64,000 nt of DNA from contig JAJDER010000045.1 in assembly GCA_029259725.1 (NCBI GenBank), positions 15,799-79,798 of the forward strand. Reading direction: 5' to 3'. The number at the start of each line of letters is the position of its first letter. Within the stretch, counting starts at the first letter, position 1. Positions 25,309 to 64,000 of the stretch are shown in pieces. Both the position numbers and the translations under genes were made by a program. The notes beneath the pieces are model-generated. The model had not been told where the DNA came from. It saw only the letters and a program-made list of their open reading frames with translations, and made no database searches. This DNA is from Planctomycetota bacterium (GTDB lineage: Bacteria; Planctomycetota; B15-G4).

Positions 25309-25329
25309 ACGGGAGGCCGCGCGCTGTCC

Positions 25330-41361: not shown

Positions 41362-41511
41362 TCTTGGTCGCCGCCCCGCACCCGGGATATCATTCCAGCG
41401 ATGGACGGCGTCGGTGCGGCGGTCGTCTGGATCGGAGGGCGACACGCCGGTCGCCACACTCCTTCCCCCTCTCCCACACCCACTCTCGCACCGTTCGCCG
41501 AGGGCTCCCGG

Positions 41512-42801
<1,290 letters not shown>

Positions 42802-42860
42802 TGACGGACCCCGTCCGTCGCCCGCCACATCGCGGTGCGCCCGAGTCGATCGCCTGATCG

Positions 42861-44759
<1,899 letters not shown>

Positions 44760-44790
44760 AGGCGCCTCGCGGCCCCGCTCGCACGGGCTC

Positions 44791-46710: not shown

Positions 46711-46793
46711 CCGACCGAGGATGCCTCGCGCTCGGCCCGTCTGCCAGCCCGACGTCAGCGGGGCCGAGGATCCACCCGATCCCGCGACGCCGG

Positions 46794-48110: not shown

Positions 48111-48240
48111 GGTGCTGGAACCTTACCGCCGGGGCATAGGTCCGGCAAACGGGCTGGGAGAGGGGCGATGCGCCCGACCCTTGAGCCTAAGGCATGATCG
48201 GCTCGGCAGGCGCTACGGCTCCAGGATTCCCGGTTGGAAG

Positions 48241-50067: not shown

Positions 50068-50178
50068 CGAGGGACTCCAGCTGGTCGGGTGCGCCCCCTT
50101 ATCTTGCCGCCTCCAGGCGACTCCAGGCAACCGGGACGGGCGCCTCACCCACCGACCCGGTTAGTCCCGAGGGGGGTC

Positions 50179-52107: not shown

Positions 52108-52385
52108 GCGCGTTGTGACTCGATGGAGCGTGGGCGGCACCCGGGAAAGGGCGCGCCGGAAGACGCGACGGCCGAGGGGGCTCTTGCATCCCTCTTGCTT
52201 ATCGGCCGTCCATCCGACGGCTGGTTCTAAGTCGTCCCGTCTCAGCGCATTACGGACGACAGGGAGGGACGCTGCAAGCCTGGGGCGAGATTCGGGAGTG
52301 AGAGCAGTCCACTACAGCTCGGGCGCCGTGGCCGCCGCCCGGCGGGAATGATGATTCTGCCTCGCCGTCGGGCTGGCTCGCCGAG

Positions 52386-52994
52386 ATGTCCGCGGGCGGT
52401 TCAAGTCGCCTGGGTGGGTCTCCGAGAAGGGTGAGCGACACCGCAGACCCACTTGGAGTGCCCTACGTGAACCCCACCCGTGACAGAGCCCCCCGTCGCG
52501 GCTCGCGCCGCAGCCTCAGCGGCGCAACCTTCGCGGAGGTCATGCTTTCCGCCGCGATCATCGGTACGACGGTCGTGGGCGCCATGGCCTCCCTGCAGAG
52601 CACGGCGGAGGTGTTCCACTACTTCTCCGATGGGCCACATGAAGCCCTGATGCTCGCCCAGGAGATCCACGAGGCGGCCATGTTGCTTCCGTGGGAAGAG
52701 GGCGGCGAGTCGGCCGGTTTCGGCCCCCAGATCTCGATTCTCGGCGACTTCCACGACCAGACCTTCAAGCCGCCGAAGTCCGCCGAGTTCGACAACATCG
52801 TGAGCCACAAGCTGTGGCGGCAGTCCGTGGAGGTCGTCCAGGTGGACCTTACGGACCCCTCCGTCGTCATCGAGAGCCCCGAGTCGTTCTCCGGCGACAC
52901 GCTCACGGAACTGCGGGTCCTGATCCACTCCGAGGACGGGACCGAGATGGGCACCTTCAGTTGGTGGATGACGGAACCCGAAGACGACGGGTGA
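52386..52994 (+). CDS. Pseudopilin-like protein with a degenerate prepilin cleavage motif.
   Basis: ...RRSLSG|ATFAEVMLSAAIIGTTVVGAMASL has Gly at -1, Glu at +5 and a hydrophobic helix. The start is either the ATG at 52386 or the in-frame GTG at 52467, which has GGAG 8 nt upstream. Confidence 0.45.
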   Translation: MSAGGSSRLGGSPRRVSDTADPLGVPYVNPTRDRAPRRGSRRSLSGATFAEVMLSAAIIGTTVVGAMASLQSTAEVFHYFSDGPHEALMLAQEIHEAAMLLPWEEGGESAGFGPQISILGDFHDQTFKPPKSAEFDNIVSHKLWRQSVEVVQVDLTDPSVVIESPESFSGDTLTELRVLIHSEDGTEMGTFSWWMTEPEDDG

Positions 52995-53034
52995 TCGCCG
53001 TCCCGCCGACCCAGCCCCTCCACCCCCGACACCC

Positions 53035-54051
53035 ATGAGATCCACATCGATGAAGAACCACCGGCGATCCCCACGGCGACACAAGTCGCGCGGCTGGGTC
53101 CTGATCGCATCCCTGCTCATCTCCTCCATGCTCGCCGCCTTGACGGTGACGTGGGCCCGCCACGCCGTGCTCGCGAAGAAGAGCCTGGAGGTGGACAGCG
53201 GTGCGAGCGAATCCGAGGAAGCCACCCGCTCCGGCCTGGAGCGCACCCGTGAGCGCATGCGCATGGGCGAGCTTCCCGGCGGCTGCGAGACCGGCACCGA
53301 GGACTCGATCGAGACCAACGGCCGCATCGTCATGAGCGAGCGGCACGAGGACGGTCACGACCGTCGTGAGATCCGCGTCCGGACCCGCAAGGTCGAGACT
53401 CCCGAGGAGGACGAGGCCAACGTGCGCGCTCGCACCGAGGTCGTCCCCGGTGGTGGCAGCTCGAAGCGCCGTGCCCGCCTCAACTGCGAGGAGGGCACCG
53501 CGGTGCTCGCTTCGGGCCTGCTCACCATCATCAGTGACGACACGACTCTTCAGGACGTCTCGCTCGCCGGACACTTCCTGCTCGAGCCAGGCGTCGAGCT
53601 GACCCTGGACAACGTCCAGCTGCGCGGCACGATCCTCACGCGCGCCGGGCTCTGCGAGGACGAGCCGCTGCAGGAGGGCTCCTCACGCCCCAGTGTCCGT
53701 GTCTTCGGCGACGTGCGCTTGCTCGCCGGCACGGAACTCCCGGGCGTGGCCATGGTCGCGCCGGATGCGCGGTTCGAGACCGATCTCTCCTCGCGTGTCG
53801 AGGTGCGCGGTTTCGCGGCTGTCGACGAGCTGAAGATCCGTGGCAGAGGCACCGCGCGCGGCATGCTCGTCGCGTACAGCGACGAGGAGATCAGCGACGA
53901 CGTCTCGCGCCCGGGCTACGGCCGTGGCGTGCAGTCCTGGCCGGACAAGATCGACCCCGGTGCCGAGCGCGTGGTGCGCATCGCCTTCCCGGTGGACGAA
54001 GTGCCCGAAGCCACGCTCGATGCCATGGACGACTACGAGATCGACGACTGA
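53035..54051 (+). CDS. GspK-like minor pseudopilin / hypothetical secreted protein.
   Basis: An N-terminal basic stretch is followed by a single hydrophobic helix (RGWVLIASLLISSMLAALTVTW). The remainder is acidic/basic low-complexity plus a beta-rich domain. This is a weak assignment. Confidence 0.4.
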   Translation: MRSTSMKNHRRSPRRHKSRGWVLIASLLISSMLAALTVTWARHAVLAKKSLEVDSGASESEEATRSGLERTRERMRMGELPGGCETGTEDSIETNGRIVMSERHEDGHDRREIRVRTRKVETPEEDEANVRARTEVVPGGGSSKRRARLNCEEGTAVLASGLLTIISDDTTLQDVSLAGHFLLEPGVELTLDNVQLRGTILTRAGLCEDEPLQEGSSRPSVRVFGDVRLLAGTELPGVAMVAPDARFETDLSSRVEVRGFAAVDELKIRGRGTARGMLVAYSDEEISDDVSRPGYGRGVQSWPDKIDPGAERVVRIAFPVDEVPEATLDAMDDYEIDD

Positions 54052-54054
54052 TCG

Positions 54055-54552
54055 ATGATGACCTCGACGCGCACGAATCGCGGTTTCACGCTGATCGAAC
54101 TGCTGATCGTCTCGGCCGTGTTGATGATGCTCGCGCTCATCGCCATGCCTGCTGGCGGGATGAACGACCACCGCAAGCTCGACATCATCCAGCTCGCGGT
54201 GCAGGACGCTCTCGACGTCGCGCAGCGCCAGTCCTACAAGTCCGGCGTTCCCTATGGCGTGCGCTTCGGCACGAACGCAGGCGGCTGGTTCGCCGTCGTC
54301 AACGAAGCCGGCATCCCCATCGAAGACCCGCTCAGTCACGGCTCGTACGTCGTGCGCCTGAGCGACCCCGGTCATCCCACGAACGTCACCATCGAGTACG
54401 CCATCTTCGGGCTGCGTCCCGTCGCTGCGTACGACGAGAAGGGCGTGCTGGTCCAAGGGGGCCAGATCCATCTACGGGCCGGCGACCAGGTGCGCTGGCT
54501 TCAGCTCACCACGGCGAGCCCCGAGCTCGAGGTGGTCCCGGCCACGCCGTAG
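54055..54552 (+). CDS. Type II secretion / type IV pilus pseudopilin (GspG/GspH-like) with a canonical prepilin N-terminal methylation motif.
   Basis: MMTSTRTNRG|FTLIELLIVSAVLMMLALIAM has the G-FTLIEL consensus with Glu at +5. Confidence 0.75.
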   Translation: MMTSTRTNRGFTLIELLIVSAVLMMLALIAMPAGGMNDHRKLDIIQLAVQDALDVAQRQSYKSGVPYGVRFGTNAGGWFAVVNEAGIPIEDPLSHGSYVVRLSDPGHPTNVTIEYAIFGLRPVAAYDEKGVLVQGGQIHLRAGDQVRWLQLTTASPELEVVPATP

Positions 54553-54586
54553 TCCGGCCCGGGACCAGAAGAAGGAGACAAGAGAG

Positions 54587-55966
54587 TTGAAGAGGCGCAA
54601 GTCCGGAAGCATCGGAATTGTCATCGGTGACGGCATGTTGCGTGCCGCCCAGCACGTCGACGGACGCCTTGTGTCCGCGACCGTTCCGGCCGACGACAAT
54701 CTCGACAATCTGAAGAAGAGCATGCGACAGCTGCTCTCCGCCGCACCCTTTTCAGGGCGCGACGTCGTGCTCGGCCTCGAGGGCAAGTCCGTCCTCGTCG
54801 AGTCGCTGGTCGTCCCTCCGCACCATGCCAAGTCGATCCGGTCGTTCTGCGCGGACCGCCTGAAGGGGGACCCGCTGTTCGACAGCAGCAAGGCTGCCCA
54901 CGGCGTGTCCTCCGGTACGGCCAAGAGTGAGCAGGGACGGGGGGCAACCCTCGCCGTGTTGGCGGCGATCAACTCCGACCGCCTGGAGACGATCATCCGC
55001 ACCTGCCGCGAGATGGAACTCGTGGTGATCTCGGTCGAAGCCGCTCCGCTCGCCGCCTGGCGCGCCTGGAGTGGGGAAGGCGTCCAAGCGCGCTTCCTCC
55101 GCTCCGACAAGGGCGACGTCGTCCTGGCCGGCCAGGACGATCAGCTGCTCTTCTGCCGCGTCGTGCCGGGGTCGATCTCGCTCGCCGAGCTCTCCACGAC
55201 CCTCTCGCGCGCCACGACCCTGCTGGGTGCCCAGGAGCTCGACCGGCTCGAAGCCACGGGTCTGTCCGAAGCCGACATGCAGATCCTCTCCGGTGACCTG
55301 GGCATGAACGTGTCCTCGCCCCAGGAGGAGATGCCCGACGCTGCGGCGGCCGGCCTCGCCGCCGAAGGCCTCCCGCTGATCGACTTCACGCCTCCCGAGG
55401 AGCGCGTGCTCCGCGAGAAGCGTCGCGTGCGCAAGATGCGCATCGGCGTGAGTGGTGTGGCCACGGCACTGGTCGCTGCCATCGCCATCATGGGGCAGCA
55501 GCAGCTCGGCGGCCTGGTGGACGAGCACATCGCCCTCGCCGCCCGGGTCGACCAGATCCGGGACACGCGCTCCCAACTCGAGGCGCTCCAGAAGGAGGTC
55601 CAGGTCCAGCAGGCCAACGAGACCGTCATCAACGAGGCCCGCCCGGGCCACAACATGTCGACGCTCTTCCAGCTGGTCAGCCGTGCCGCCACGTCCTCGA
55701 TCTCCTTCGAGACGATCCAGTGCGAAGACCGGCCCGATCCGTCGGTGCCGATCGACCAGCGTGACGACGGCCCGATCCGCCGCATGCTCGAGATCCAGCT
55801 GAACGGCCTGGCCGCGAACGGCATCGCCGTGCGCGACTACGCCGACGTCCTGCTCAGCACCAAGGCGTTCACGGACGTCCGAGTCGAGTCGAGCGAGCGC
55901 GTGCTGCTCGGCGCCGGCACCGAGGGTGAGCGATTCCGCATCTACGCGCGCGCGGAGACCCGGTGA
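54587..55966 (+). CDS. GspL-like protein: cytoplasmic actin-like (PilM-like) domain, single TM helix, periplasmic PilN-like coiled-coil domain.
   Basis: It starts at a TTG at 54587 with a GAAGGAGA Shine-Dalgarno sequence 8 nt upstream. The N-terminus reads IGIVIGDGMLRAAQ. The TM helix reads IGVSGVATALVAAIAIMG and is followed by a coiled coil. Confidence 0.6.
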   Translation: MKRRKSGSIGIVIGDGMLRAAQHVDGRLVSATVPADDNLDNLKKSMRQLLSAAPFSGRDVVLGLEGKSVLVESLVVPPHHAKSIRSFCADRLKGDPLFDSSKAAHGVSSGTAKSEQGRGATLAVLAAINSDRLETIIRTCREMELVVISVEAAPLAAWRAWSGEGVQARFLRSDKGDVVLAGQDDQLLFCRVVPGSISLAELSTTLSRATTLLGAQELDRLEATGLSEADMQILSGDLGMNVSSPQEEMPDAAAAGLAAEGLPLIDFTPPEERVLREKRRVRKMRIGVSGVATALVAAIAIMGQQQLGGLVDEHIALAARVDQIRDTRSQLEALQKEVQVQQANETVINEARPGHNMSTLFQLVSRAATSSISFETIQCEDRPDPSVPIDQRDDGPIRRMLEIQLNGLAANGIAVRDYADVLLSTKAFTDVRVESSERVLLGAGTEGERFRIYARAETR

Positions 55967-56490
55967 TGAAGTTCGGAGCACATATCGCCGTCACGGGGAT
56001 GGCCCTCGCGGTCGCCTCCGCTGGCGTCCTCTTCCCGATCTACGGCAAGGTCGGAGGACTTCAGGAGGAAGTCGCGAGCCTCGAGGCCGAGCAGGCCACG
56101 GGGGGAGCCATCGAAGCGCAGTTCATGCAGCTCGAGGCCGAGAAGCGTGACCTGGAGGAACGCATCGCGGGCCGCCAGTTCCGACTGCTTCCCGACAACC
56201 AGGAGGCGCATCACAACTTCGAGACGCGCCTGCTGCAGCTCGTCGGTGACTCCGGGTTGAACAGCGTCCGGACCGGCCGCGGCAAGGACGCGGTGGGCGG
56301 ACTCTACCGCCACCTGGACTGGGAACTCGTGGTCGAAGGCGCTGCCGGAGACCTGGACCGCTTCCTGATCTCGCTCGAGCGCATCGAGTGGGTGACGCGG
56401 GTGCAGTCGCTGCAGGTCGAGCCTGGCGACGAGATGCGTCGCATCACGATGAAGATCGCCGTGATGCTCGAGACGAAGGGAAACGCATGA
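55963..56490 (+). CDS. GspM/PilO-like bitopic inner-membrane protein.
   Basis: It overlaps the upstream stop by ATGA. An N-terminal TM helix (IAVTGMALAVASAGVLF) is followed by a coiled coil and then a ferredoxin-like periplasmic domain. Confidence 0.5.
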   Translation: MMKFGAHIAVTGMALAVASAGVLFPIYGKVGGLQEEVASLEAEQATGGAIEAQFMQLEAEKRDLEERIAGRQFRLLPDNQEAHHNFETRLLQLVGDSGLNSVRTGRGKDAVGGLYRHLDWELVVEGAAGDLDRFLISLERIEWVTRVQSLQVEPGDEMRRITMKIAVMLETKGNA

Positions 56491-57053
56491 AGAACCCGCC
56501 CAACAACGCCGCGAAGATCCAGGCGGCCAAGCAGAAGAAGCAGTTGATGATGCTGGGCGTGCTCGCCCTGGTGCTCGTCGCCGTCCTGTTCGTGCAGTTT
56601 GGCAGCGAGGACGGCGCGCCCGAGATCGTGGCCATGGCTGCGCCCGAGGAGCACTTCAACGCCGATGCCTCCGACGACGAAGCGGTGGTCCTGAACGTCG
56701 CCGGCCCGGTCGCCGACAACTCGGTGTTGAACCAGGCGCCCGATTACGAGGGCATGACCACCAACCCCTTCAAGAACTTCTGGAACACGCCCGTCGAGGA
56801 CGCCCCCGAGGTCGTCCAGGAGGTCATGCCTCCGTCGGTCGTCCTCAACGGAACGCTCACCGCGGACGCCGAGGTGCCGATGGCCCTCATCGACGGCTCG
56901 TTGCGATTCATCGGTGACGACGTCGGCGGGTGGGAACTGGCCGAGGTGCGTTCCCGCTCCGTGATCCTCAGGGCGCCGACCCAAGAGTGGGTTGTCGTCG
57001 AGATGCCGCTGCTCCGGGCCGAGATCCACGCGCCCGTGGCCATCGACGGCTGA
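56487..57053 (+). CDS. PilP/GspC-like periplasmic protein (secretin-interacting).
   Basis: It overlaps the upstream stop by ATGA. An N-terminal TM helix reads LMMLGVLALVLVAVLF. A C-terminal beta domain reads VVLNGTLTADAEVPMALIDGSLRFIGDDVGGWELAEVRSRSVIL, resembling the PilP/GspC HR domain. Confidence 0.4.
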   Translation: MKNPPNNAAKIQAAKQKKQLMMLGVLALVLVAVLFVQFGSEDGAPEIVAMAAPEEHFNADASDDEAVVLNVAGPVADNSVLNQAPDYEGMTTNPFKNFWNTPVEDAPEVVQEVMPPSVVLNGTLTADAEVPMALIDGSLRFIGDDVGGWELAEVRSRSVILRAPTQEWVVVEMPLLRAEIHAPVAIDG

Positions 57054-57073
57054 GAACCCGCCTGGAGGCTCCG

Positions 57074-58777
57074 ATGTCCCCCGATTCAAGAACCCGTCCG
57101 TACACGGTCGATAGGTGCCGCCGCCCGGCCCTCTCCGAGAGTCCGCTCATGTTCCGCTGCCTGCTTCTCATCGCCCTCGCCACCGCCTTCGTCGCAGCCC
57201 CTGTCGGGGCCCAGGACGACGACGGCCTGGTGACCCTCAACGTCCGAGCCACGTCACTCGGCCAGGTGCTGGAGATGATCTCCGTCCAGCAGCGGGTCAA
57301 CATCGTCACGGGTGTCGACACCAACGTCCCCGTCACGGCGAACTTCTACGACGCCAGCCTCGAGGAAGCCCTCGACTGGGTGCTCAACCCGCTCGGTCTC
57401 GGCTGGGTCTTCGACGGCAAGGTCTATCACGTCATGCCGCTCGACGACCTCGACGCGATCGAGCAGCCGCTGGTGCACTCGATCATCCACCCGAACTACA
57501 TGACGGTGCAGGAGCTGCAGGCGTTCGTCCTGCCCCTGCTCTCGGCGCGCGGCAGTGTCGTGTTGTCCGAGGCCTCGCAGGAGGGGATCGAGTCGGGTTC
57601 CAGCGAAGCGGGCGGCAACGACTCCACGCTGCCCGAGACCATGCTCGTGATCGACACCGAGGACGCCATCCGCCGCATCATGCAGCTGGTGGCCGAGCTC
57701 GATGGGCGACCGTTGCAGGTGCTCGTGCAGGCCACGATGATCGAGGTCAAGCTCGATGAGACCAACAAGTTCGGCGTGGACCTGGCGCTGCTCGGCGGCG
57801 GCACGTCCTTCTCCGACTTCGAGAGCCTGACGGCCCTCGACACGCCCTACTCGGCGCCGACGACGTTCGTGCCCGGTGAGTTCGGGGCCGGCGGCCTGGC
57901 GGCCGGCGCGCCCTTCCTGCAGCCCTCGGGCACGAGCTCGGCGGTGACCAGCGGCTTCACGGATCCGACCGGCGACGGTCTGCGCATCGGGTGGGTCGGG
58001 AGTGGCGCGGCGGTCTTCATCGAAGCGCTGTCCGAGATCGCCGACACGAACGTGCTCGCCAACACCGAGGTCCTGGCGCTCAACAAGCAGCGCGCCGAGC
58101 TGATCATCGGTGGTCGCCTGGGCTACTTCGGCGGCACGACGGTCAGTGACGGCATCAGCCAGCAGACGGTCGAGTTCCTCGAGGTCGGCACGCAGCTGCG
58201 CTTCCGTCCCTTCATCGGGAACGACGGCTTCGTCCGCCTGGAGATCCACCCGCAGCGAGGTAGCGGCGTCGTCGACCCCGACACCGGCCTGCCCAACGAG
58301 ACCACCTCCGAGGTCACGACCAACGTCATGGTGCGCGACGGTGAGACCGTCGTCATCGGCGGCCTGATCGAGACCCGCGACGTCGCCACCGAGTCCAAGG
58401 TGCCGGTGCTCGGTCACCTGCCCGGTATCGGCTGGCTCTTCAGCTCCGAGACCACCGAGGTCGAGCGGACCGAGATCATCACCCTGATCACCCCGCACAT
58501 CCTCGAGAACGGTGAGACCTTCCAGGACGGCAGCCTGATCAAGGAGCGGTACGAGCGCGACAGCGAGTACTTCCGCGATTCGTTCGGCATCGAGGCCCGC
58601 TACACGCAGGGTCAGGCCGTCCAGGAAGAAGCGCGTGCCGCCATGAACGCCGGTCGCCTCGAAGAGGCGCGCATGCTCTGCGACCGCGCGCTGAAGATCG
58701 ACCCGCTGGCCGAGGGCCTGGTCGACCTGTCCGTCGAGATCGACCGTCGCCTGGCTGGCCAGGGCGGAGGCAACTGA
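57074..58777 (+). CDS. gspD: Secretin (GspD/PilQ family).
   Basis: N-domain motifs are VTLNVRATSLGQVLEMISVQQRVNIV and FYDASLEEALDWVL. The secretin domain reads NTEVLALNKQRAELIIGG...VMVRDGETVVIGGLI...SKVPVLGHLPGIGWLF...ITPHIL. The start is the ATG at 57074, with GGAGG upstream. An alternative ATG at 57149 gives a classical Sec signal, MFRCLLLIALATAFVAAPVGAQ. Confidence 0.8.
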   Translation: MSPDSRTRPYTVDRCRRPALSESPLMFRCLLLIALATAFVAAPVGAQDDDGLVTLNVRATSLGQVLEMISVQQRVNIVTGVDTNVPVTANFYDASLEEALDWVLNPLGLGWVFDGKVYHVMPLDDLDAIEQPLVHSIIHPNYMTVQELQAFVLPLLSARGSVVLSEASQEGIESGSSEAGGNDSTLPETMLVIDTEDAIRRIMQLVAELDGRPLQVLVQATMIEVKLDETNKFGVDLALLGGGTSFSDFESLTALDTPYSAPTTFVPGEFGAGGLAAGAPFLQPSGTSSAVTSGFTDPTGDGLRIGWVGSGAAVFIEALSEIADTNVLANTEVLALNKQRAELIIGGRLGYFGGTTVSDGISQQTVEFLEVGTQLRFRPFIGNDGFVRLEIHPQRGSGVVDPDTGLPNETTSEVTTNVMVRDGETVVIGGLIETRDVATESKVPVLGHLPGIGWLFSSETTEVERTEIITLITPHILENGETFQDGSLIKERYERDSEYFRDSFGIEARYTQGQAVQEEARAAMNAGRLEEARMLCDRALKIDPLAEGLVDLSVEIDRRLAGQGGGN

Positions 58778-59193
58778 TGATCCAGCGTGTGGAGGCTGGT
58801 CGCGAGCTGACCCACGGTGCCATCGCCGACCTCGGAGCGACACTCTCCGAGCAGGTGGCCCGCGGCGTGACGACGGTGCACATGAGTGCGGCGCGCGTCT
58901 CGCAGTTCGACAGCCAGACCCTCGAGTCGCTGCTCGAGTTCGATGCGTTGGCCCGCTCCCGCGGGCTCTCTTTCACCCTCATCGACCCGTCCGACCTGCT
59001 CCAGGCGGCCCTGCGTGTGACCGGCGTCGACAGCCGCATCCAGGTCCGGCAGGGCGAGGGAGAGGTGGACTCGTCGCCCGACGACGAGACGCCGGTGCTC
59101 GCTGAGGAACTCGCCGAGGAGGATCTCGACGAGGAGTTCGACATCGCCGCGGGGGATCTCGCCGGCGACGATGACCCAGGGGATTCCGAATGA
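58777..59193 (+). CDS. STAS-domain protein (anti-sigma-factor-antagonist-like) with an acidic C-terminal tail.
   Basis: It overlaps the secretin stop (TGATG) and the GspE start (ATGA). The fold pattern LTHGAIADL..., VHMSAARVSQFDSQTLESLLEFDALARSRGLSFTLIDPSDLLQ looks like SpoIIAA/STAS. The C-terminus is highly acidic. Confidence 0.55.
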   Translation: MIQRVEAGRELTHGAIADLGATLSEQVARGVTTVHMSAARVSQFDSQTLESLLEFDALARSRGLSFTLIDPSDLLQAALRVTGVDSRIQVRQGEGEVDSSPDDETPVLAEELAEEDLDEEFDIAAGDLAGDDDPGDSE

Positions 59194-60920
59194 CCGTCGT
59201 CGGTCTCGATCACGCGAGCCTCGCTGACACCCTTCGCGACGCGGGCATCCTCTCCGATGCCGATCTCGACCGGGGCCTGAAGGCCCCTGCGAAGGGCATC
59301 GGGGAACAGCTCGACAAGCGTCTCATCCGCCTCGGTCTCCTCGACGAGGTCGGACTGCTCCAAGCCCTCGCGATCCAGCGCGGCATGCCCTTCGCCCGGA
59401 TCGACAAGGGGCTCGGCGATCGTGCGATGTTCGAGGTGCTCGACAAGGAGTGGGCGCGCAGCCATGCCGTGCTCCCGCTCTACCGCGTGCACGGCGAACT
59501 GACCGTCGCGATCTCCGATCCCACCGACGTCTTCACCATCGATGCGCTCACGCGCCTCACGGGCCTGAAGATCCGGCTCGTGGTGGCGCCGGCCGGTGAC
59601 ATCGACAGCGGGCTGTCCCAGATGGGCGGCAAGCTGAGCGGGTTGTCGGTGGACGACATCCTGGACGACGCCGAGGACGACGGGGGCCTCGACCTCATCA
59701 AGGCCGAGGCCGACGAGGCCGAGAACCTCGAGGAGATCGCCGGTCTGTCCCCGGTCGTGCGACTGGTGAACCGCGTGATCAAGGGCGCGATCACGCACGG
59801 CGCGTCCGACATCCACATCGAGCCGGACGAGAACACGCTGCGTCTGCGCTTCCGCATCGACGGCATCCTCCGCGAAGCCGATGAGATCATGGGCGTCACG
59901 CGCCTGCCGCCGCGTTTCGCGCCGGCCATCGTGTCGCGCGTGAAGATCATGGCCGCTCTCGACATCGCCGAGCGCCGCGTCCCGCAGGACGGCCGCATCC
60001 CGGTCATGTTCGACGGGCGCGCCATCGACCTGCGTGTCTCGACGTTGCCCACGGGCTTCGGCGAGAAGGTCGTCATGCGTATCCTCGACCGCTCGGCCAT
60101 GCTCCGCGACCTGGCGTCGCTGGGCTTGAGCCCGCGTATCGAGGACGGTCTCAAGGACCTGGTGGGCGCGCCCAACGGCGTGCTGCTGGTCACGGGCCCG
60201 ACCGGCTCGGGCAAGACGACCACGCTCTACGCCGCGCTCGCGACGATCAACTCCATCGACCGCAACATCTGCACGGTGGAGGACCCGACCGAGTACACGA
60301 TCCCGATGATCAACCAGGTCCAGGTGAACGAGCGGGCCGGTCTGACCTTCGGGTCGGCGCTGCGTTCGCTGCTGCGTCAGGACCCGGACGTGATCATGGT
60401 GGGTGAGATCCGCGACCGCGAGACGGCGCAGATCTGCATCGAGGCGGCGCTCACGGGCCACCTCGTGTTCTCGACCCTGCACACCAACGACGCCATCGCC
60501 GCGGTGCCGCGCCTGGTCAACATGGGGCTGGAGTCCTACCTCATGGCCGCCGCGCTCAACGGCATCCTGGCCCAGCGCCTCGTGCGCAGGTTGTGCGAGC
60601 ACTGCAAGGTCACCGTGCGTCCCACCGAGCGCGATCTCGCGCTGCTCGAGAAGTTCGAGGTCGGTGATGTCGATCTGGCGCGCGGCGAGGGCTGCGCCCA
60701 GTGCACGGGCACCGGCTACAGCGGGCGTGTCGGCATCCACGAGCTGTTCGTCATCGACGACTGCCTGCGCGACATCATCACGAAGAACCCGACCCTCTCG
60801 GCACTGCGCCGTGAAGCCAAGAAGCAGGGGCACCTGGCTCTGGCGTACGACGGCCTGATCAAGGCCGGCGAGGGACTCACCACCATCGACGAAATCATCC
60901 GGGTCGCCGAGATCCGCTAG
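59190..60920 (+). CDS. gspE: Type II secretion / type IV pilus assembly ATPase (GspE/PilB family).
   Basis: A GspE_N-like N-terminus reads LLQALAIQRGMPFARI. Walker A reads LVTGPTGSGKTTTLYAAL. The Asp box and Walker B (DPDVIMVGEIRD) are present. A tetracysteine motif reads CEHC...CAQCTGTGY. Confidence 0.9.
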   Translation: MTVVGLDHASLADTLRDAGILSDADLDRGLKAPAKGIGEQLDKRLIRLGLLDEVGLLQALAIQRGMPFARIDKGLGDRAMFEVLDKEWARSHAVLPLYRVHGELTVAISDPTDVFTIDALTRLTGLKIRLVVAPAGDIDSGLSQMGGKLSGLSVDDILDDAEDDGGLDLIKAEADEAENLEEIAGLSPVVRLVNRVIKGAITHGASDIHIEPDENTLRLRFRIDGILREADEIMGVTRLPPRFAPAIVSRVKIMAALDIAERRVPQDGRIPVMFDGRAIDLRVSTLPTGFGEKVVMRILDRSAMLRDLASLGLSPRIEDGLKDLVGAPNGVLLVTGPTGSGKTTTLYAALATINSIDRNICTVEDPTEYTIPMINQVQVNERAGLTFGSALRSLLRQDPDVIMVGEIRDRETAQICIEAALTGHLVFSTLHTNDAIAAVPRLVNMGLESYLMAAALNGILAQRLVRRLCEHCKVTVRPTERDLALLEKFEVGDVDLARGEGCAQCTGTGYSGRVGIHELFVIDDCLRDIITKNPTLSALRREAKKQGHLALAYDGLIKAGEGLTTIDEIIRVAEIR

Positions 60921-60936
60921 AGAGGGCAACACCACC

Positions 60937-62067
60937 ATGGCTGTCAGTGCCGATCCCGTCCACATCCCAGCTGACGACGCACCGCTCATGGAGCGGATCC
61001 AGGCGAACGCCAAGCTCGCCATGAAGCGCATGCAGGTCCCGCCCGAGCAGATCCTCGATCTGGTCAGTCAGCTCGGGATCATGTTCGAGACGGGGCTCAA
61101 CCTGTCCGCGGCGCTCGAGGTCCTCGAGCGTCAGGCGGGAACGCCGCACCTGTCCGTGTTCGTCGGCGACATCCGCCGGTGTGTCGAGGAGGGCCTGCCC
61201 CTGTCGCAGGCGATGGGCCGCCACCCGTGGGCCTTCTCGCCCGTCGCGCTGGCCCTGGTCCGCGCCGGCGAGATGACCGGTGACCTCGGCACGATGCTGC
61301 GCAAGGTCAGCGAGTTCATGGAGCGCGACATCGGGACCAAGAAGAAGGTCCGCGGGGCGCTGGCCTACCCGGCGTTCATGGCCATCTTGGCCGTGTGCGT
61401 GATCATCTTCCTGCTGGTCAACGTCTTCCCGAAGTTCGCCGACCTGTTCAAGGACGCCGAGAAGCTGCCCGGGCCGACCAAGATGTTCATGAACCTGTCC
61501 GACTTCATGTCGGCGCACGGGACCTGGCTGCTGCCCACCGCTTTGCTCGGGGTGATCGTGAGCCTGACCTTGATCAAGTCGCGCAAGGGGCGGGAGATCT
61601 TCGATCCGATCTGGCTGAAGGCGCCGGCGTTCGGAAACCTGATCAAGGCCGTGGCCATCTCGCGCTCGTTCCACGTGCTCGGCGTCATGCTCAACGCCGG
61701 CCTGAACGTGCTCGAGGCGCTGCGCCTTGCCGCCGACGTGGCCGGCAACAACGAGTACAAGAAGCTCTGGAACCAGTGCCGGATGGACGTCGAGCAGGGC
61801 GGCGACATCTCCGCCAGTCTCATGGACAACCCGCTGGTGCCGCCGACCGAGACCGCCATGGTCTCGCTGGGTGAGCGCTCCGGGACGCTGCCCGAGGTGC
61901 TGGACAAGATCACCAAGCACCACGAGAAGAAGGTCGACGGTGCGATCAAGGCGTTCGTCGGTGTCATCGAGCCGGCCATGACGATCATCATGGGCGCGGT
62001 CGTCGCGCTCATCGTCTCCAGCTTGATCATGCCCATGTTCAGCCTGAGTTCGGCCCTGCGCGGCTGA
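60937..62067 (+). CDS. gspF: Type II secretion / type IV pilus platform protein (GspF/PilC family).
   Basis: It has two T2SSF-like repeats (GLPLSQAMGRHPWAFSPVALALVRAGEMTGDLGTML... and GGDISASLMDNPLVPPTETAMVSLGERSGTLPEVL...) and three TM helices. Confidence 0.8.
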   Translation: MAVSADPVHIPADDAPLMERIQANAKLAMKRMQVPPEQILDLVSQLGIMFETGLNLSAALEVLERQAGTPHLSVFVGDIRRCVEEGLPLSQAMGRHPWAFSPVALALVRAGEMTGDLGTMLRKVSEFMERDIGTKKKVRGALAYPAFMAILAVCVIIFLLVNVFPKFADLFKDAEKLPGPTKMFMNLSDFMSAHGTWLLPTALLGVIVSLTLIKSRKGREIFDPIWLKAPAFGNLIKAVAISRSFHVLGVMLNAGLNVLEALRLAADVAGNNEYKKLWNQCRMDVEQGGDISASLMDNPLVPPTETAMVSLGERSGTLPEVLDKITKHHEKKVDGAIKAFVGVIEPAMTIIMGAVVALIVSSLIMPMFSLSSALRG

Positions 62068-62176: not shown

Positions 62177-63313
62177 ATGCCCCTCGACGTGTTGCGCTTG
62201 ACCGAAGACCTCGTCGCCCTCGACAGCGCGCCGGGGTGCTCCACCGGGCCGGTGATCACGCGGCTGGTGGAGCAGCTCTCCGCGCTCGGCGCTCACGTCC
62301 GCGTCCAGGCCGGGGAGCACGACGGCGTTCCGCAGCAGAACCTCGTGGCGCGCTTCGGTGGCGACGCATCGGCCGGCCTGGTCCTCGCCGGCCACGTCGA
62401 CACGGTGCCGTGGGACGCGGCGATGCGCGCCACCACGAGACCCGAGCGCGACGGGCGCAGGCTCTACGGCCGCGGCGCGTGCGACATGAAGGGACCCGTC
62501 GCGGCTCAGCTGGTCGCGGTGGCGGCGCGTCGAGAGGCCCTGCGTCGACCCCTGGTCCTGGCCTTCACCTATGCCGAGGAGGTCGGCTGTCACGGTGCCG
62601 TGCACCTCGTGACCGACGCGGCCCTCGTGGGCGACGTGAGCGACGCCGTCGGTGTCGTCGGCGAGCCCACCGGCATGACGCCCATCATCGGGCACAAGGG
62701 CTACGTCATCGCCTACCTGGATCTGTTCGGGGTGCCGGCACACTCGTCCGATCCCTGGGCCGGCGCGGATGCGAGCGTGGTCCTGGCCGATCTGTTGGCT
62801 CGGCTGCACGCCCTCCGCGAGGCGCTGAGGGACGAGGGCGCCGGGTCGGGGTTCTCGCCGGCAGGCACCGTGCTGAACACCGGGCTCGTCAGCGCCGGCT
62901 CGGCGCGCAACGTGGTTCCGGACCGGGCGCGCGTCGTGCTCGAGTTGCGCCCGCTCCCCGGTACCGATGTCGCGGCGCTGCGTGCTCGCGTCGAGGCCTG
63001 CCTGGCCGCGGCCTGCGAGGGCGTGGCGGCCGTGAGCGGAGCGGCCACGTGGATCGAGGAGCAGCCGCCGTTCGAGCAGTCACCGGACGCCAGCGTGGTC
63101 GATTGGTTGGTGCAGCGCACCGGGCGCGCGAGCGACGTCGTGCGCTTCTACACCGAGGCGGAGATCTACCGCCGCGGACTGGGGATCCCGTTCACCGTGT
63201 GTGGTCCCGGCTCGATCGACCAGGCCCACCGGGTCGATGAGTCCATCGCCTTCGACGAACTCGAGGCCGGCGTCGCGCTGTACGCCGACACCATCGACGC
63301 CTTCTGCACCTGA
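62177..63313 (+). CDS. M20-family metallopeptidase (ArgE/DapE-like deacylase).
   Basis: Motifs are LVLAGHVDTVP, GRGACDMKG and YAEEVGCHGA. It has an M20 dimerisation-domain layout. Confidence 0.75.
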   Translation: MPLDVLRLTEDLVALDSAPGCSTGPVITRLVEQLSALGAHVRVQAGEHDGVPQQNLVARFGGDASAGLVLAGHVDTVPWDAAMRATTRPERDGRRLYGRGACDMKGPVAAQLVAVAARREALRRPLVLAFTYAEEVGCHGAVHLVTDAALVGDVSDAVGVVGEPTGMTPIIGHKGYVIAYLDLFGVPAHSSDPWAGADASVVLADLLARLHALREALRDEGAGSGFSPAGTVLNTGLVSAGSARNVVPDRARVVLELRPLPGTDVAALRARVEACLAAACEGVAAVSGAATWIEEQPPFEQSPDASVVDWLVQRTGRASDVVRFYTEAEIYRRGLGIPFTVCGPGSIDQAHRVDESIAFDELEAGVALYADTIDAFCT

Positions 63314-63350
63314 GCGCTGCGGGCGGGCCCGGCGGCGCGACACCCGTGGC

Positions 63351-64000
63351 TCAGCGGTTCGCGCGGACCCAGTCGCACGCGTTGGCGAAGAGCGGGGCGC
63401 CCGGGCCGTGGTCCGGCACGCTGTCCCCCTGGCGCGTCCACTCGGGATGGTGATAGCCGAAGAGCGCGCGTTCGGGGTGCGGCATCAGGCCGAGCACGCG
63501 GCCGGTGGCATCGGTGAGCGCGGCGATGGCGCCGTGGCTGCCGTTGGGATTGGCCGGGTAGTCCTGGGTCGGGGCGCCGGTCCTGTCGGCGTAGCGGAAG
63601 ACGACGCGATCGTCGGTGTCGAGTGCAGCCGCGACCCGCTCGTCGAGGGCGACGAGTCGGCCTTCGGCGTGGGCGACGGGCAGCTCGGGCGCGTCCATGT
63701 CGCCGACGAAGACGCACCGCCGCGAGCTGATCGCCAGCTTCACCCAGCGGTCCTCGTACTTGTGCGAGGCGTTGTCGGTCAGGGCCACCTCGCGCTCGCC
63801 GAGCGGAGCGGACAGGCCGGGCAGCAGGCCCAGGCGGACCAGCACCTGGAAGCCATTGCAGATGCCGAGCACGAGGCCGCCGTCCGCGACGAACCGCTGC
63901 AGCGACGAGGCCAACCGCGTGCCGAGTTCCGTGCCGAAGACGGCGCCCGCCGCGATGTCATCGCCGTAGGCGAAGCCGCCGGGCACGGCCAGGACGTGGT
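63351..64000 (-). CDS. purQ: Phosphoribosylformylglycinamidine synthase I (glutamine amidotransferase subunit PurQ), partial. The N-terminus lies beyond the window edge.
   Basis: The frame is open to base 64000. A class I GATase catalytic region reads GGFAYGDD...LVLGICNGFQVL...MPHPER. The stop codon is at 63351. Confidence 0.8.
   Translation of the reverse strand, partial: HVLAVPGGFAYGDDIAAGAVFGTELGTRLASSLQRFVADGGLVLGICNGFQVLVRLGLLPGLSAPLGEREVALTDNASHKYEDRWVKLAISSRRCVFVGDMDAPELPVAHAEGRLVALDERVAAALDTDDRVVFRYADRTGAPTQDYPANPNGSHGAIAALTDATGRVLGLMPHPERALFGYHHPEWTRQGDSVPDHGPGAPLFANACDWVRANR

What the first reader, a model, noticed from the sequence alone, without database searches (positions are those of the whole stretch)
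52386..62067. Non-canonical T2SS / type IV pilus-like gene set: pseudopilins, GspL-like (PilM-N fusion), GspM/PilO-like, PilP-like, small secretin, STAS, GspE, GspF
The gene order is pseudopilin, GspK-like, pseudopilin, L, M, PilP-like, D, STAS, E, F, with four consecutive start/stop overlaps. This matches neither the classical gspCDEFGHIJKLM order nor pilMNOPQ. The secretin is short, at about 540-570 aa. No PDZ-containing GspC, prepilin peptidase, or clearly distinct major pseudopilin is seen in the window. The first pseudopilin-like gene has Ala at +1 of the cleavage motif. This looks like a streamlined or hybrid secretion or pilus system, comparable to those described in Myxococcota, Chloroflexi or Bdellovibrio-like lineages. 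Its cargo or fibre is unknown.
Basis: partly seen in the sequence, partly recalled or inferred. Interest (0 to 1): 0.55.

Follow-up and report, generated by a model that had tools for sequence, protein, structure and literature searches.

The report
Planctomycete pilus/secretion machine with STAS
This is a real, conserved ten-gene operon from an uncultured planctomycete that builds a type IV pilus / type II secretion-like envelope machine; it mixes features of both classes and carries a small STAS regulator gene fused in register to its motor ATPase gene, a pairing I found across the phylum but not in the literature I could search.

Summary

The same ten genes in the same order, with the same unrelated flanks, occur in six other loci from Planctomycetota MAGs (29-74% protein identity). 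The cluster is therefore complete and vertically inherited. No prepilin peptidase, PilT or major pilin lies beside it.

No component reaches an NCBIfam T2SS or T4aP equivalog cut-off. The ATPase is PilB-like over its full length and groups with planctomycete PilB genes, some of which have an adjacent PilT. In relatives PilM and PilN are separate genes, so the GspL-like fusion is specific to this lineage. The 'GspK-like' protein is a pilin module plus a β-solenoid domain with no structural match in the PDB.

A STAS gene directly upstream of the ATPase recurs in Planctomycetota loci and in no other phylum sampled.

Verdict: a new variant within the type IV filament superfamily. Whether it makes a fibre or secretes cargo is unresolved.

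The parts
52141..52385 (.). Intergenic region between the divergent HEAT-repeat gene and g1; presumed promoter region of the operon.
   Evidence: No sigma-70 consensus site was found, and the two terminator-like hits (one of them here) are no more than the shuffled-sequence expectation. Its role is inferred from position only.
52386..52994 (+). g1: small prepilin-like minor pilin (SG|ATFAEV, Ala at +1, Glu at +5). The likely real start is GTG 52467, giving 175 aa.
   Evidence: The motif and a HEALMLAQEIHEAA helix are conserved in 7 orthologues. GGAG lies 10 nt before GTG 52467. There are no Pfam or PDB sequence hits. The family HMM matches the last small pilin of Phycisphaerae-type clusters, E 4e-5 to 6e-4. 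It shares only the N-terminal segment with g3.
53035..54051 (+). g2: large minor pilin lacking Glu5 (RG|WVLIA) with a C-terminal β-solenoid domain; candidate tip subunit. The likely start is ATG 53050, giving 333 aa.
   Evidence: The AF2 model has pLDDT 88: helix 20-76, β-sheet 90-138 and a β-solenoid-like region 160-317. Foldseek against the PDB gave no hit with E<=0.001; the best was 0.49, an ice-binding β-helix. Only 119 relatives were found among 1.84 billion representative proteins. There are no Pfam or PDB sequence hits.
54055..54552 (+). g3: canonical prepilin (RG|FTLIELL), a GspH/FimU-like minor pilin.
   Evidence: N_methyl E 2e-7, and weak GspH hits (PF12019 E 0.09; TIGR01708 29 bits against a cut-off of 80). 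PDB hits cover only the N-terminal helix. It gives a full-length HMM match (E 1e-10 to 1e-14) to the gene called GspH (weak) in Phycisphaerae-type clusters. In those clusters a separate ~157-aa pilin precedes that gene.
54587..55966 (+). g4: PilM-PilN fusion (GspL-like). It has a cytoplasmic actin-like domain (1-260), a TM/coiled helix (270-350) and a periplasmic ferredoxin-like domain (357-457).
   Evidence: AF2 pLDDT 88. Foldseek: PilM 1.6e-13, cyto-EpsL 2.7e-10 with TMt 0.62-0.65, and FtsA. Pfam PilN is weak. There are 64 homologues, all about 450-475 aa. In relatives PilM and PilN are separate ORFs.
55963..56490 (+). g5: bitopic GspM/PilO-like protein.
   Evidence: GspM_XpsM E 3e-5 (23.7 bits, cut-off 60). 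PilO Pfam E 0.065. M. xanthus PilO E 0.027 over nearly the full length. Its start overlaps the g4 stop by 4 nt.
56487..57053 (+). g6: bitopic protein with an N-terminal TM helix, an acidic/Pro-rich linker and a C-terminal HR-like β domain (GspC/GspB/PilP-like). It has no PDZ domain and no lipobox.
   Evidence: See the alignment. PF16537 T2SSB is hit in 3 of 7 orthologues, best E 3.5e-4. The protein at the same position in Gimesia gives the same hit. The HR domains of GspB, GspC and PilP share one fold and bind the secretin N0 domain (PMC9239104).
57149..58777 (+). g7: short secretin (542 aa). It has a signal peptide, N0 (STN-like), one N1-type domain, the secretin domain, and a conserved C-terminal TPR-like hairpin in place of an S domain.
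   Evidence: Secretin E 3e-39, with weak STN and Secretin_N hits. GspD scores 182.5 bits (cut-off 351) and PilQ 152 bits (cut-off 284). In the PDB, GspD aligns from residue 155/192 on, while PilQ aligns over 54-480. The start and the C-terminal extension are conserved in orthologues.
58777..59193 (+). g8: single-domain STAS protein (SpoIIAA/RsbV class) with the conserved Asp-Ser at the phospho-site position and an acidic disordered tail.
   Evidence: STAS_2 scores 40.2 bits (cut-off 29.2). The profile hits TM1442 at 5e-13, SpoIIAA at 6.5e-8 and MlaB at 5e-4. D45 and S46 are invariant in the 13-sequence profile alignment, and the DS pair is present in all 16 planctomycete STAS genes that lie next to an ATPase. 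It overlaps the g7 stop by 1 nt and the g9 start by 4 nt.
59190..60920 (+). g9: PilB/GspE-family hexameric assembly ATPase with an N-terminal MshEN-type region.
   Evidence: T2SSE E 6e-131 and MshEN E 5e-19. GspE scores 586.7 (cut-off 630) and PilB 571 (cut-off 676). In the PDB, Geobacter, Myxococcus and Thermus PilB/PilF score 445-449 bits over residues about 10-573, while GspE scores 403-406 bits only from residue 157 on. Walker A, Walker B and two CxxC motifs are conserved in all seven orthologues; the His-box pattern matched in six of seven.
60937..62067 (+). g10: GspF/PilC inner-membrane platform protein (376 aa).
   Evidence: T2SSF E 3e-58, two repeats. GspF scores 286 bits (cut-off 424) and PilC 255 bits (cut-off 700). 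It is the most conserved gene of the cluster, 63-74% identical to orthologues.

Best explanation
The ten genes form one operon encoding a complete envelope-spanning type IV filament machine. It belongs to a Planctomycetota-specific branch and descends from the phylum's T4aP-like pilMNOPQ / STAS-pilB-pilC gene set. In this lineage the set has been remodelled into a compact, T2SS-like single locus.

Proposed working (steps marked shown or inferred):
1. g1, g2 and g3 are made as prepilins. A peptidase encoded elsewhere processes them. The motifs are shown; the processing is inferred.
2. g4 (PilM-PilN fusion), g5 (PilO/GspM-like) and g6 (HR domain) form the inner-membrane alignment complex. [quoted passage not shown] The folds and domains are shown; the contacts are inferred from homologous systems.
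3. The hexameric ATPase g9 sits under the platform g10. The actin-like domain of g4 holds it there, as GspL holds GspE (inferred).
4. The STAS protein g8 is co-translated with g9. It binds the motor or its tether and gates assembly through its conserved Ser, as a partner-switch-type on/off input. This is a hypothesis.
5. g1-g2-g3 prime the filament. The Glu5-less g2 sits at the tip and exposes its β-solenoid domain (inferred).
6. A major pilin encoded elsewhere polymerises underneath. It pushes the tip through the 542-aa secretin (inferred).

I judge the product more likely to be a surface fibre that presents g2 for adhesion or substrate capture than a pure secretion piston, but only by a narrow margin.
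For: The machine is real and under selection:
- The same ten genes in the same order occur in six other loci at 29-74% identity, with the same unrelated flanks.
- The ATPase catalytic motifs are largely intact: Walker A/B and the CxxC pairs in all seven orthologues, the His-box pattern in six of seven.

T4aP-type ancestry:
- The ATPase aligns over its full length with PilB/PilF but only from residue 157 on with GspE.
- It sits inside a planctomycete-only clade that includes PilB genes followed by PilT.
- The Gimesia locus reads PilN, PilO, HR protein, secretin, TPR, HK, GGDEF, STAS, PilB, PilT, PilC.
- The secretin has a PilQ-like N0-N1-secretin span.

T2SS-like remodelling:
- g4 is a single 459-aa PilM+PilN polypeptide. 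Its actin-like domain is the size of cyto-GspL (TMt 0.65).
- Relatives keep PilM and PilN separate.
- No PilT lies in the cluster or the window.

STAS link:
- The stop/start overlaps on both sides of g8 are shown.
- A STAS ORF lies directly upstream of the ATPase in 9 of 21 planctomycete loci and in 0 of 59 loci from other phyla.
- It also does so in 3 of 3 independently sampled members of the 111-aa STAS subfamily.
- The Asp-Ser pair is present in every planctomycete STAS sequence aligned.

Tip pilin: g2 lacks Glu5 and has a pilin module plus a β-solenoid.

Minor-pilin identity of g1 and g3: they match the GspH-like and last small pilins of Phycisphaerae-type clusters, which additionally carry a ~157-aa pilin that is absent here.
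Against: - No major pilin, prepilin peptidase or retraction ATPase could be located; only 64 kb of the genome is visible.
- No protein-protein contact was tested.
- The STAS role is inferred from conserved adjacency alone. No Ser kinase or phosphatase is in the cluster. In relatives the neighbouring kinase is a HisKA histidine kinase, which is not the kinase type that phosphorylates SpoIIAA-class STAS proteins.
- The ATPase tree is neighbour-joining without support values and without curated T2SS, T4aP or MSH references.
- By NCBIfam bit score, GspD, GspE and GspF are each the top hit for their protein, and a single-locus layout without PilT is typical of T2SS. Secretion is therefore a serious alternative.
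- The g2 model has no structural neighbour, so an adhesin role is a guess based on fold class.
Confidence: 0.55

Rival explanations
1. It is a working type II secretion system. A short periplasmic pseudopilus, primed by g1-g3, pushes folded exoproteins such as the CAZymes and sulfatases abundant in Planctomycetota through the small secretin. There is no surface fibre.
For: The single locus holds pilins-L-M-C-D-E-F, a rotation of the gsp/xps order (own knowledge). It has a fused GspL-like protein, a GspM_XpsM hit, a bitopic HR-domain protein like GspC/GspB and a GspH-like pilin. No PilT is present. By NCBIfam bit score, GspD, GspE and GspF are the top hits.
Against: Every T2SS equivalog cut-off is missed. 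There is no GspG, GspI or GspJ, and no GspK fold. The secretin lacks N2/N3 and an S domain. The ATPase N-terminus is PilB-type, and the ATPase groups with PilB genes that have an adjacent PilT. The fusion arose within a lineage whose relatives have separate PilM and PilN.
Confidence: 0.3
2. The STAS gene is an ordinary anti-sigma-factor antagonist. It acts on transcription or on a remote partner and merely travels with the ATPase gene. The machine itself runs without it.
For: Its best structural-family matches are the classical antagonists TM1442, SpoIIAA and RsbV. No contact with the ATPase was tested. Relatives place sensor kinases and a GGDEF protein next to it, which suggests a signalling cassette.
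Against: Adjacency to the ATPase is kept across lineages whose ATPases are only 41-49% identical to g9, while everything else around the pair is rearranged. The reading frames overlap on both sides in the window and in L088-L092. No anti-sigma kinase or sigma factor gene accompanies it in any of the loci read.
Confidence: 0.3
3. It is a DNA-uptake (competence) pilus machine.
For: Competence pili in diderms are T4aP-type machines with short fibres and few pilins (Denise et al. 2019, PMC6668835).
Against: No ComEA, ComEC or DprA-type genes were seen in the cluster or window. Nothing specific points to DNA.
Confidence: 0.07
4. It is a decaying remnant that no longer assembles anything.
For: The major pilin, the peptidase and PilT are missing from the locus.
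Against: All ten ORFs are intact in seven loci that have diverged to 29-74% identity. Walker A/B and the tetracysteine motifs are kept in all seven ATPases (the His-box pattern matched in six), and the prepilin motifs and translational coupling are also kept.
Confidence: 0.03

Closest known systems
Type IVa pilus machine (PilB, PilC, PilM, PilN, PilO, PilP, PilQ of Myxococcus xanthus, Pseudomonas aeruginosa, Geobacter, Thermus)
   Same: The ATPase matches PilB/PilF over its full length, including the N-terminal MshEN-type region (445-449 bits). A PilC-type platform is present. PilN-, PilO- and PilP(HR)-like proteins lie in the pilMNOPQ order. The secretin aligns with PilQ across N0-N1-secretin. 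Minor pilins are encoded apart from the major pilin.
   Different: PilM is fused to PilN. The HR protein is bitopic rather than a lipoprotein. The secretin has no AMIN domains, and no PilT/PilU lies in the locus. Only three minor pilins are present and there is no PilY1. A STAS gene lies between the secretin and the ATPase. The PilB, PilQ and PilC NCBIfam cut-offs are all missed.
Classical type II secretion system (Gsp/Xps/Eps)
   Same: A GspL-like fused protein whose actin-like domain matches cyto-EpsL. A GspM-like protein. A bitopic HR-domain protein like GspC/GspB. The D-E-F order and a one-locus layout. A GspH-like pilin. A large Glu5-less pilin at the GspK position. No retraction ATPase.
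   Different: There is no GspG, GspI or GspJ. The large pilin has a β-solenoid, not the GspK fold. There is no PDZ domain or coiled coil on the C-like protein. The secretin has one N1-type domain instead of N1-N3 and a TPR-like tail instead of an S domain. The ATPase N-terminus is not GspE-like. All equivalog cut-offs are missed.
Unnamed Planctomycetota clusters found here: (HK)-STAS-PilB-PilC-PilM-PilN-x-x-pilins in Phycisphaerae-type loci (L052, L057, L088, L090, L092), and PilN-PilO-HR-secretin-TPR-HK-GGDEF-STAS-PilB-PilT-PilC in Gimesia (L001)
   Same: The ATPases fall in the same clade. A STAS gene overlaps or abuts the ATPase start. The g1, g3, g4 C-terminal half, g5, g6 and g7 families are homologous.
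   Different: Those clusters keep PilM and PilN separate. They carry a sensor histidine kinase (plus GGDEF and PilT in Gimesia) and an extra ~157-aa pilin. Their large pilin is not detectably related to g2. Their STAS ends in a conserved AVxSF helix instead of an acidic tail.
Reduced or atypical type IV filament systems classed as 'generic' (for example the Chlamydiae T2SS-like system)
   Same: The key components (ATPase, platform, pilin, secretin) are present, but the accessory proteins are not recognised by standard profiles (Denise et al. 2019, PMC6668835; Abby et al. 2016, PMC4793230).
   Different: Here L-, M- and C/P-like proteins are present and can be shown by structure or weak profiles. 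The Chlamydiae system is reported to lack GspL/M homologues.
STAS-domain partners of other machines: MlaB-MlaF (ABC transporter) and the BtrU/V/W partner switch of the Bordetella T3SS
   Same: In each case a single-domain STAS protein is genetically tied to a transport or secretion ATPase or machine. MlaB is a detectable relative (E 5e-4). BtrV regulates type III secretion through a conserved Ser (PMC8256260).
   Different: No Mla or Btr components are present here, and the association with a PilB-type ATPase is different. These are analogies for a mechanism and carry no claim of membership.

Membership tests
Type IV filament superfamily (generic definition of Denise et al. 2019: ATPase + IM platform + pilin; secretin and peptidase accessory) | PilB/GspE-family AAA+ ATPase | tested here: met
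   T2SSE E 6e-131. Walker A/B and tetracysteine motifs are conserved in all seven orthologues; the His-box pattern matched in six.
Type IV filament superfamily (generic definition) | GspF/PilC platform protein | tested here: met
   T2SSF E 3e-58, two repeats.
Type IV filament superfamily (generic definition) | Protein(s) with a class III (prepilin) signal peptide | tested here: met
   g3 has N_methyl at E 2e-7. The G|xxxxE motifs are conserved in g1 and g3. Which pilin is the major one is unknown.
Type IV filament superfamily (generic definition) | Prepilin peptidase (accessory; may be shared or remote) | tested here: not met
   No Peptidase_A24 was found in any scanned ORF of the window or in the called genes of six syntenic loci. 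The rest of the genome could not be tested.
Type II secretion system (NCBIfam equivalogs / classical Gsp set) | GspD, GspE and GspF reach their equivalog cut-offs | tested here: not met
   GspD 182.5 against 351.35; GspE 586.7 against 630.25; GspF 286.4 against 424.
Type II secretion system | Major pseudopilin GspG in the locus | tested here: not met
   The best GspG score is 16 bits against a cut-off of 88.85, and it covers the N-terminal helix only. g3 is orthologous to a GspH-like minor pilin.
Type II secretion system | GspI-GspJ-GspK tip complex | tested here: not met
   g1 and g2 have no Pfam, NCBIfam or PDB sequence hits. The g2 model has no GspK-like Foldseek hit.
Type II secretion system | GspL: one polypeptide with a cytoplasmic actin-like domain, a TM segment and a periplasmic ferredoxin-like domain | tested here: met
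   See the AF2 model. Cyto-EpsL/GspL hits have E 2.7e-10 and TMt 0.62-0.65. The architecture is met, but the fusion appears to have arisen independently.
Type II secretion system | GspM | tested here: inconclusive
   GspM_XpsM scores 23.7 bits against a cut-off of 60. PilO hits are equally weak.
Type II secretion system | GspC with an HR domain plus a PDZ or coiled-coil domain | tested here: not met
   Only an HR-like domain is present (weak T2SSB hits). There is no PDZ domain.
Type II secretion system | Secretes folded periplasmic proteins | not testable with these tools
   This needs secretome comparison of mutants.
Type IVa pilus | PilB, PilC and PilQ reach the NCBIfam cut-offs | tested here: not met
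   PilB 571 against 675.65; PilC 254.7 against 700; PilQ 152.1 against 284.35. PilB proteins are nonetheless the best solved-structure matches over the full length.
Type IVa pilus | Retraction ATPase PilT | tested here: not met
   There is none in the cluster, the window or the flanks of six syntenic loci. One is present next to PilB in the related Gimesia locus. The rest of the genome was not testable.
Type IVa pilus | Separate cytoplasmic PilM and bitopic PilN | tested here: not met
   They are fused in g4 and separate in relatives.
Type IVa pilus | PilQ with N-terminal AMIN domain(s) | tested here: not met
   The mature secretin begins directly with an N0/STN-like domain, and there is no AMIN hit.
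SpoIIAA/RsbV-class STAS-domain-only proteins | STAS fold at the family cut-off | tested here: met
   STAS_2 scores 40.2 bits against a cut-off of 29.2. The profile hits TM1442 at 5e-13 and SpoIIAA at 6.5e-8.
SpoIIAA/RsbV-class STAS-domain-only proteins | Conserved phosphorylatable Ser after Asp | tested here: met
   D45 and S46 are invariant in the 13-sequence alignment, and the DS pair is present in all 16 planctomycete sequences aligned. That this position corresponds to SpoIIAA Ser58 is my own knowledge.
SpoIIAA/RsbV-class STAS-domain-only proteins | Cognate Ser kinase (anti-sigma) and PP2C phosphatase partners | tested here: not met
   None lies in the cluster or its flanks. The neighbours in relatives are HisKA histidine kinases. 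The rest of the genome was not testable.
MshEN c-di-GMP receptor domain | Two intact RLGxx(L/V/I)(L/V/I)xxG(L/V/I)(L/V/I)xxxx(L/V/I)xxx(L/V/I)xxQ motifs | tested here: inconclusive
   The Pfam MshEN hit covers residues 65-147 only. The c-di-GMP motif model scores 19.9 bits against a cut-off of 38. In the alignment, motif 1 lacks the Arg, Gly and Gln, and motif 2 has Gly replaced by Asp or Ser. The motif definition is from my own knowledge.

The most novel reading that the evidence does not exclude
Two linked readings remain open.

1. The STAS protein is a dedicated, phylum-wide switch subunit of PilB-type motors in Planctomycetota. It would couple Ser-phospho or partner-switch signalling directly to filament assembly. 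This control mode has not been described for any type IV filament machine.

2. This lineage is a natural intermediate in which a T4aP-type machine has independently acquired T2SS hallmarks: a PilM-PilN fusion into a GspL-like protein, loss of PilT from the locus, and a single-locus layout. It would then be a living model for how T2SS arose from pili.
Probability: 0.25. Interest if true: 0.65.

Novelty: new variant of a known kind. Interest (0 to 1): 0.45.

Why it matters
Type IV filament machines are usually sorted into pili or secretion systems using proteobacterial models. Hundreds of 'generic' systems in other phyla remain unassigned (PMC6668835).

This locus gives a concrete, well-conserved example from Planctomycetota, a phylum whose fibres, crateriform structures and polymer uptake are poorly understood at the molecular level. 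It contributes three testable points:
- A STAS protein is genetically locked to the assembly ATPase across the phylum.
- A PilM-PilN fusion parallels GspL but arose inside a clade whose other members keep the two genes separate.
- A rare pilin family carries a β-solenoid head with no solved structural relative.

Any of these could be followed up in culturable planctomycetes that carry the STAS-pilB pair.

Tried and rejected
- Exact look-ups of the window ATPase and of P0001 in the contig index found nothing.
The orthologous loci were reached instead through the g4 family.
- tblastn of the ten proteins against the 80 ATPase-seeded loci saw only D, E and F, plus two isolated g3 (pilin) hits. Family HMMs were needed to see the other components.
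- Profile searches of g1, g2 and g6 against PDB sequences gave nothing credible.
- hhalign of g1 against g3 aligned only the prepilin segment.
- The idea that the ATPase N-terminus is an intact c-di-GMP-binding MshEN module was not supported (19.9 bits against a cut-off of 38; degenerate motifs).
- Promoter and terminator consensus scans were uninformative: 0 promoters, and terminators at the shuffled-sequence expectation.
- Cluster look-ups returned no accession or organism name for the window's own proteins. The taxon is inferred from the names of relatives ('Planctomycetota bacterium'; contig name 'Planctomycetota_B15_G4').
- The 1537-aa ORF at 23770-28383 (-) was rejected as a shadow of + strand genes, on the basis of its inverted GC1/GC3 pattern.
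- Literature searches for STAS with PilB or type IV pili found no paper. A 2021 review of STAS-only proteins mentions no pili, T2SS or Planctomycetes.

Full report
**Observation**

They show the strong third-position GC bias of real genes in this genome. Four junctions overlap: g4/g5 and g5/g6 by 4 nt, g7/g8 by 1 nt, and g8/g9 by 4 nt. They are not consecutive, because about 95 nt separate g6 from the secretin start. Alignment with orthologues moves three starts. g1 probably begins at GTG 52467, which has GGAG 10 nt upstream. g2 probably begins at ATG 53050, and the secretin at ATG 57149, giving 542 aa.

**Source and conservation**

The ATPase-seeded scan of species-representative genomes found nothing closer than 49-51% identity, and the best hits were Planctomycetota MAGs. 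The g4 protein has 64 homologues of 41-100% identity. All hits that carry a name are 'Planctomycetota bacterium' or hypothetical.

Six loci read around such homologues (L081, L082/83, L084-L087) carry the same ten genes in the same order. Five of the six also keep the full conserved upstream flank: typA, a radical-SAM/SPASM gene, a squalene-hopene-cyclase-like gene and a HEAT-repeat gene on the other strand; L086 lacks the cyclase-like gene. Downstream of gspF they carry unrelated genes, mostly an M20 peptidase, purQ and purL. Identity to the window ranges from 29-41% (g5, g6) to 63-74% (g10). The cluster is therefore a complete, vertically inherited unit under purifying selection. The 'missing' components are not adjacent to it.

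Pfam scans of the other large ORFs of the window and a six-frame motif scan found no prepilin peptidase, PilT, PDZ-containing GspC or further prepilin.

**Components**

- **g3** is a canonical prepilin (RG|FTLIELL; N_methyl E 2e-7) with weak GspH similarity.
- **g1** has a conserved G|[AT][TS]F[AV]E motif, confirming Ala/Thr at +1 with Glu5 kept. It has no family or PDB sequence match.
- **g2** has G|WVL[IA]A and no Glu5.
  - Its AlphaFold2 model (pLDDT 88) is an N-terminal helix, a four-stranded sheet and a C-terminal β-solenoid-like domain.
  - Foldseek found no significant PDB neighbour, and in particular no GspK.
  - An exhaustive profile search of 1.84 billion representative proteins found only 119 relatives.
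- **g4** models confidently (pLDDT 88) as an actin-like domain (1-260), a long helix and a ferredoxin-like domain.
  - It matches PilM (E 1.6e-13) and cyto-EpsL/GspL (E 2.7e-10).
  - The GspL domains are covered better (TM 0.62-0.65 against 0.44-0.54 for PilM, normalised to target).
- **g5** is weakly GspM/PilO-like.
- **g6** is bitopic. Its C-terminal domain weakly hits the GspB HR-domain model in 3 of 7 orthologues. That domain shares a fold with GspC-HR and PilP and binds the secretin N0 domain (PMC9239104).
- **The secretin (g7)** has an STN/N0-like domain, one N1-type domain and the secretin core. A C-terminal TPR-like hairpin is conserved across the lineage.
- **g8** is a STAS domain above the Pfam cut-off, of the SpoIIAA/RsbV/TM1442 class.
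- **g9** has Walker A, Walker B, His-box and tetracysteine motifs and an N-terminal MshEN-type region.
- **g10** is a two-repeat GspF/PilC platform protein.

**Relation to other planctomycete systems**

I built HMMs from the seven orthologue sets and searched them against six-frame ORFs of the 80 ATPase-seeded loci. A STAS ORF lies directly upstream of the ATPase in nine records. All nine are Planctomycetota (Gimesia, Planctomycetaceae, Rubripirellula, several Phycisphaerae). None was found in the 59 records from other phyla.

A profile search with planctomycete STAS sequences found 1101 relatives. Three 111-aa members chosen only for contig length all sit in the arrangement histidine kinase - STAS - PilB - PilC - PilM - PilN - x - x - pilin - GspH-like pilin - 338-364-aa pilin - small pilin, with STAS overlapping the ATPase start.

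The Gimesia locus reads PilN, PilO, HR protein, 793-aa secretin, TPR protein, histidine kinase, GGDEF, STAS, PilB, PilT, PilC.

In these relatives PilM and PilN are separate genes, so the fusion in g4 is specific to the window's lineage.

g3 matches the GspH-like pilin of these clusters over its full length, and g1 matches their last small pilin. Their additional ~157-aa pilin, a candidate major subunit, has no counterpart in the window. g1-g3 are therefore best read as minor, priming pilins.

A neighbour-joining tree of the ATPases places the window lineage inside a planctomycete-only clade, away from loci with an E-F-G-H layout. The tree has no support values and no curated references.

**Classification**

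No component reaches any NCBIfam T2SS or T4aP equivalog cut-off:

| Family | Score (bits) | Cut-off (bits) |
|---|---|---|
| GspE | 586.7 | 630 |
| PilB | 571 | 676 |
| GspD | 182.5 | 351 |
| PilQ | 152 | 284 |
| GspF | 286 | 424 |
| PilC | 255 | 700 |

Against solved structures, PilB/PilF proteins align with the ATPase over residues about 10-573 (445-449 bits). GspE/EpsE aligns only from residue 157 on (403-406 bits). GspD aligns only with the C-terminal part of the secretin, whereas PilQ aligns across N0-N1-secretin.

Features that look T2SS-like:
- the fused L-like protein;
- the bitopic HR protein;
- the GspH-like pilin and the Glu5-less pilin;
- the single locus without PilT.

Features that look T4aP-like:
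- the ATPase architecture and its clade;
- the secretin span;
- synteny with pilNOP(Q)...pilB(T)C in relatives.

It fits the 'generic' type IV filament class of Denise et al. 2019, which needs an ATPase, a platform and a pilin (PMC6668835). It fits neither named class. MacSyFinder itself could not be run.

**Mechanism**

The most economical reading is a functional type IV filament machine.
- Prepilins g1-g3 are processed by a remote peptidase and prime a filament, with the Glu5-less, β-solenoid-bearing g2 at the tip.
- g4, g5 and g6 form the alignment complex, with the HR domain of g6 on the secretin N0.
- g9 and g10 drive polymerisation of a major pilin encoded elsewhere.

These contacts are inferred from homologous systems. 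None was tested here.

The STAS gene is translationally coupled to both the secretin and the ATPase genes. Its adjacency to the ATPase is kept while the rest of the neighbourhood is shuffled across the phylum, and its Asp-Ser is invariant. I therefore propose that it binds the motor or its PilM-like tether and gates assembly.

Two precedents exist for STAS proteins serving machines:
- MlaB with the MlaF ATPase, detectable here at E 5e-4;
- the BtrV partner switch of the Bordetella T3SS (PMC8256260).

Against this proposal, no Ser kinase or phosphatase lies nearby. The neighbouring kinases in relatives are HisKA-type.

Fibre versus secretion cannot be decided from sequence. I lean slightly to a fibre that presents g2.

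**Novelty**

The machine belongs to a known superfamily in which atypical systems are common, so the basic finding is not surprising. Three things appear new in the material I could search:
- the phylum-wide STAS-PilB gene pair (no paper found; absent from a STAS review);
- a lineage-specific PilM-PilN fusion that parallels GspL;
- a rare β-solenoid pilin family.

I rate it a new variant of a known kind, of moderate interest.

**Limits**

- Only 64 kb of the genome and 10-kb flanks of relatives were visible.
- Two fold libraries were unavailable.
- The tree is approximate.
- The taxon is inferred from the names of relatives only.

Noticed in passing
window 41401-52140 and 62177-63986; L081-L087 flanks: The block gdh - typA/bipA - radical-SAM/SPASM - squalene-hopene-cyclase-like - HEAT-repeat protein (the last three on the - strand) upstream, and M20 peptidase - purQ - purL downstream, stays syntenic with the cluster in most relatives. 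There is no sign of a mobile element or a composition shift.
   Followed up: partly
window 58500-58777 (secretin residues about 450-542); L001 4842-5927: The secretin ends in a conserved ~90-residue extension with one TPR-like hairpin (EAR.AL..G.L.EAR.LCDRA...DPL) where GspD has its pilotin-binding S domain. In Gimesia a separate TPR protein follows the secretin gene. This could be a fused or built-in pilotin-like element.
   Followed up: partly
L088, L090, L092 (7071/7155-8999); L001 6138-9600: In other Planctomycetota the STAS-PilB pair is immediately preceded by a HisKA/HATPase_c histidine kinase (PAS domain weakly detected in two of the three) whose stop abuts the STAS start. In Gimesia it is preceded by a histidine kinase plus a GAF-GGDEF diguanylate cyclase. 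The window's lineage has lost this sensor module.
   Followed up: partly
window 59190-59390 (ATPase residues 1-65): The ATPase N-terminus carries two tandem helical repeats that resemble the MshEN c-di-GMP-binding motif. The key Arg, Gly and Gln of repeat 1 and the Gly of repeat 2 are replaced. The dedicated NCBIfam motif model scores 19.9 bits against a cut-off of 38.
   Followed up: partly
window 59080-59193 (STAS residues about 100-138): The window's STAS protein has a 40-residue, very acidic, probably disordered tail; the whole protein is 23% Asp+Glu. Within the lineage the tail varies from absent to about 45 residues. Other planctomycete STAS proteins instead end in a conserved AVxSF helix.
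   Followed up: no
window 23770-28383 (-) versus 23605-25308, 25330-26043 and 26182-28773 (+): The longest ORF of the window (1537 aa, - strand) is Arg/Gly-rich and has an inverted GC1/GC3 pattern. It is a shadow of + strand genes. One of those is an 863-aa FG-GAP/VCBS-repeat protein. A second FG-GAP protein lies at 44791-46710 (-).
   Followed up: yes
window 2513-5974 (-), 32551-34596 (-), 46794-48110 (-): The 64 kb holds three radical-SAM genes. One is a 1153-aa B12-binding type and one has a SPASM domain. Two fused ABC exporters lie at 28832-32547 (-). This could be a peptide-modification or export neighbourhood. No link to the pilus cluster was seen.
   Followed up: no
window 14861-18376 (-), 38204-39682 (-), 39745-41361 (+): Three sizeable ORFs with good coding statistics (1171, 492 and 538 aa) have no Pfam match at E<=0.001.
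   Followed up: no
window 8401-11289 (+), 20048-23365 (-): A 962-aa sulfatase with a long N-terminal extension and a 1105-aa BlaR1-type M56 peptidase fused to many TPR repeats. Both are typical of planctomycete genomes and consistent with the taxonomic assignment.
   Followed up: no
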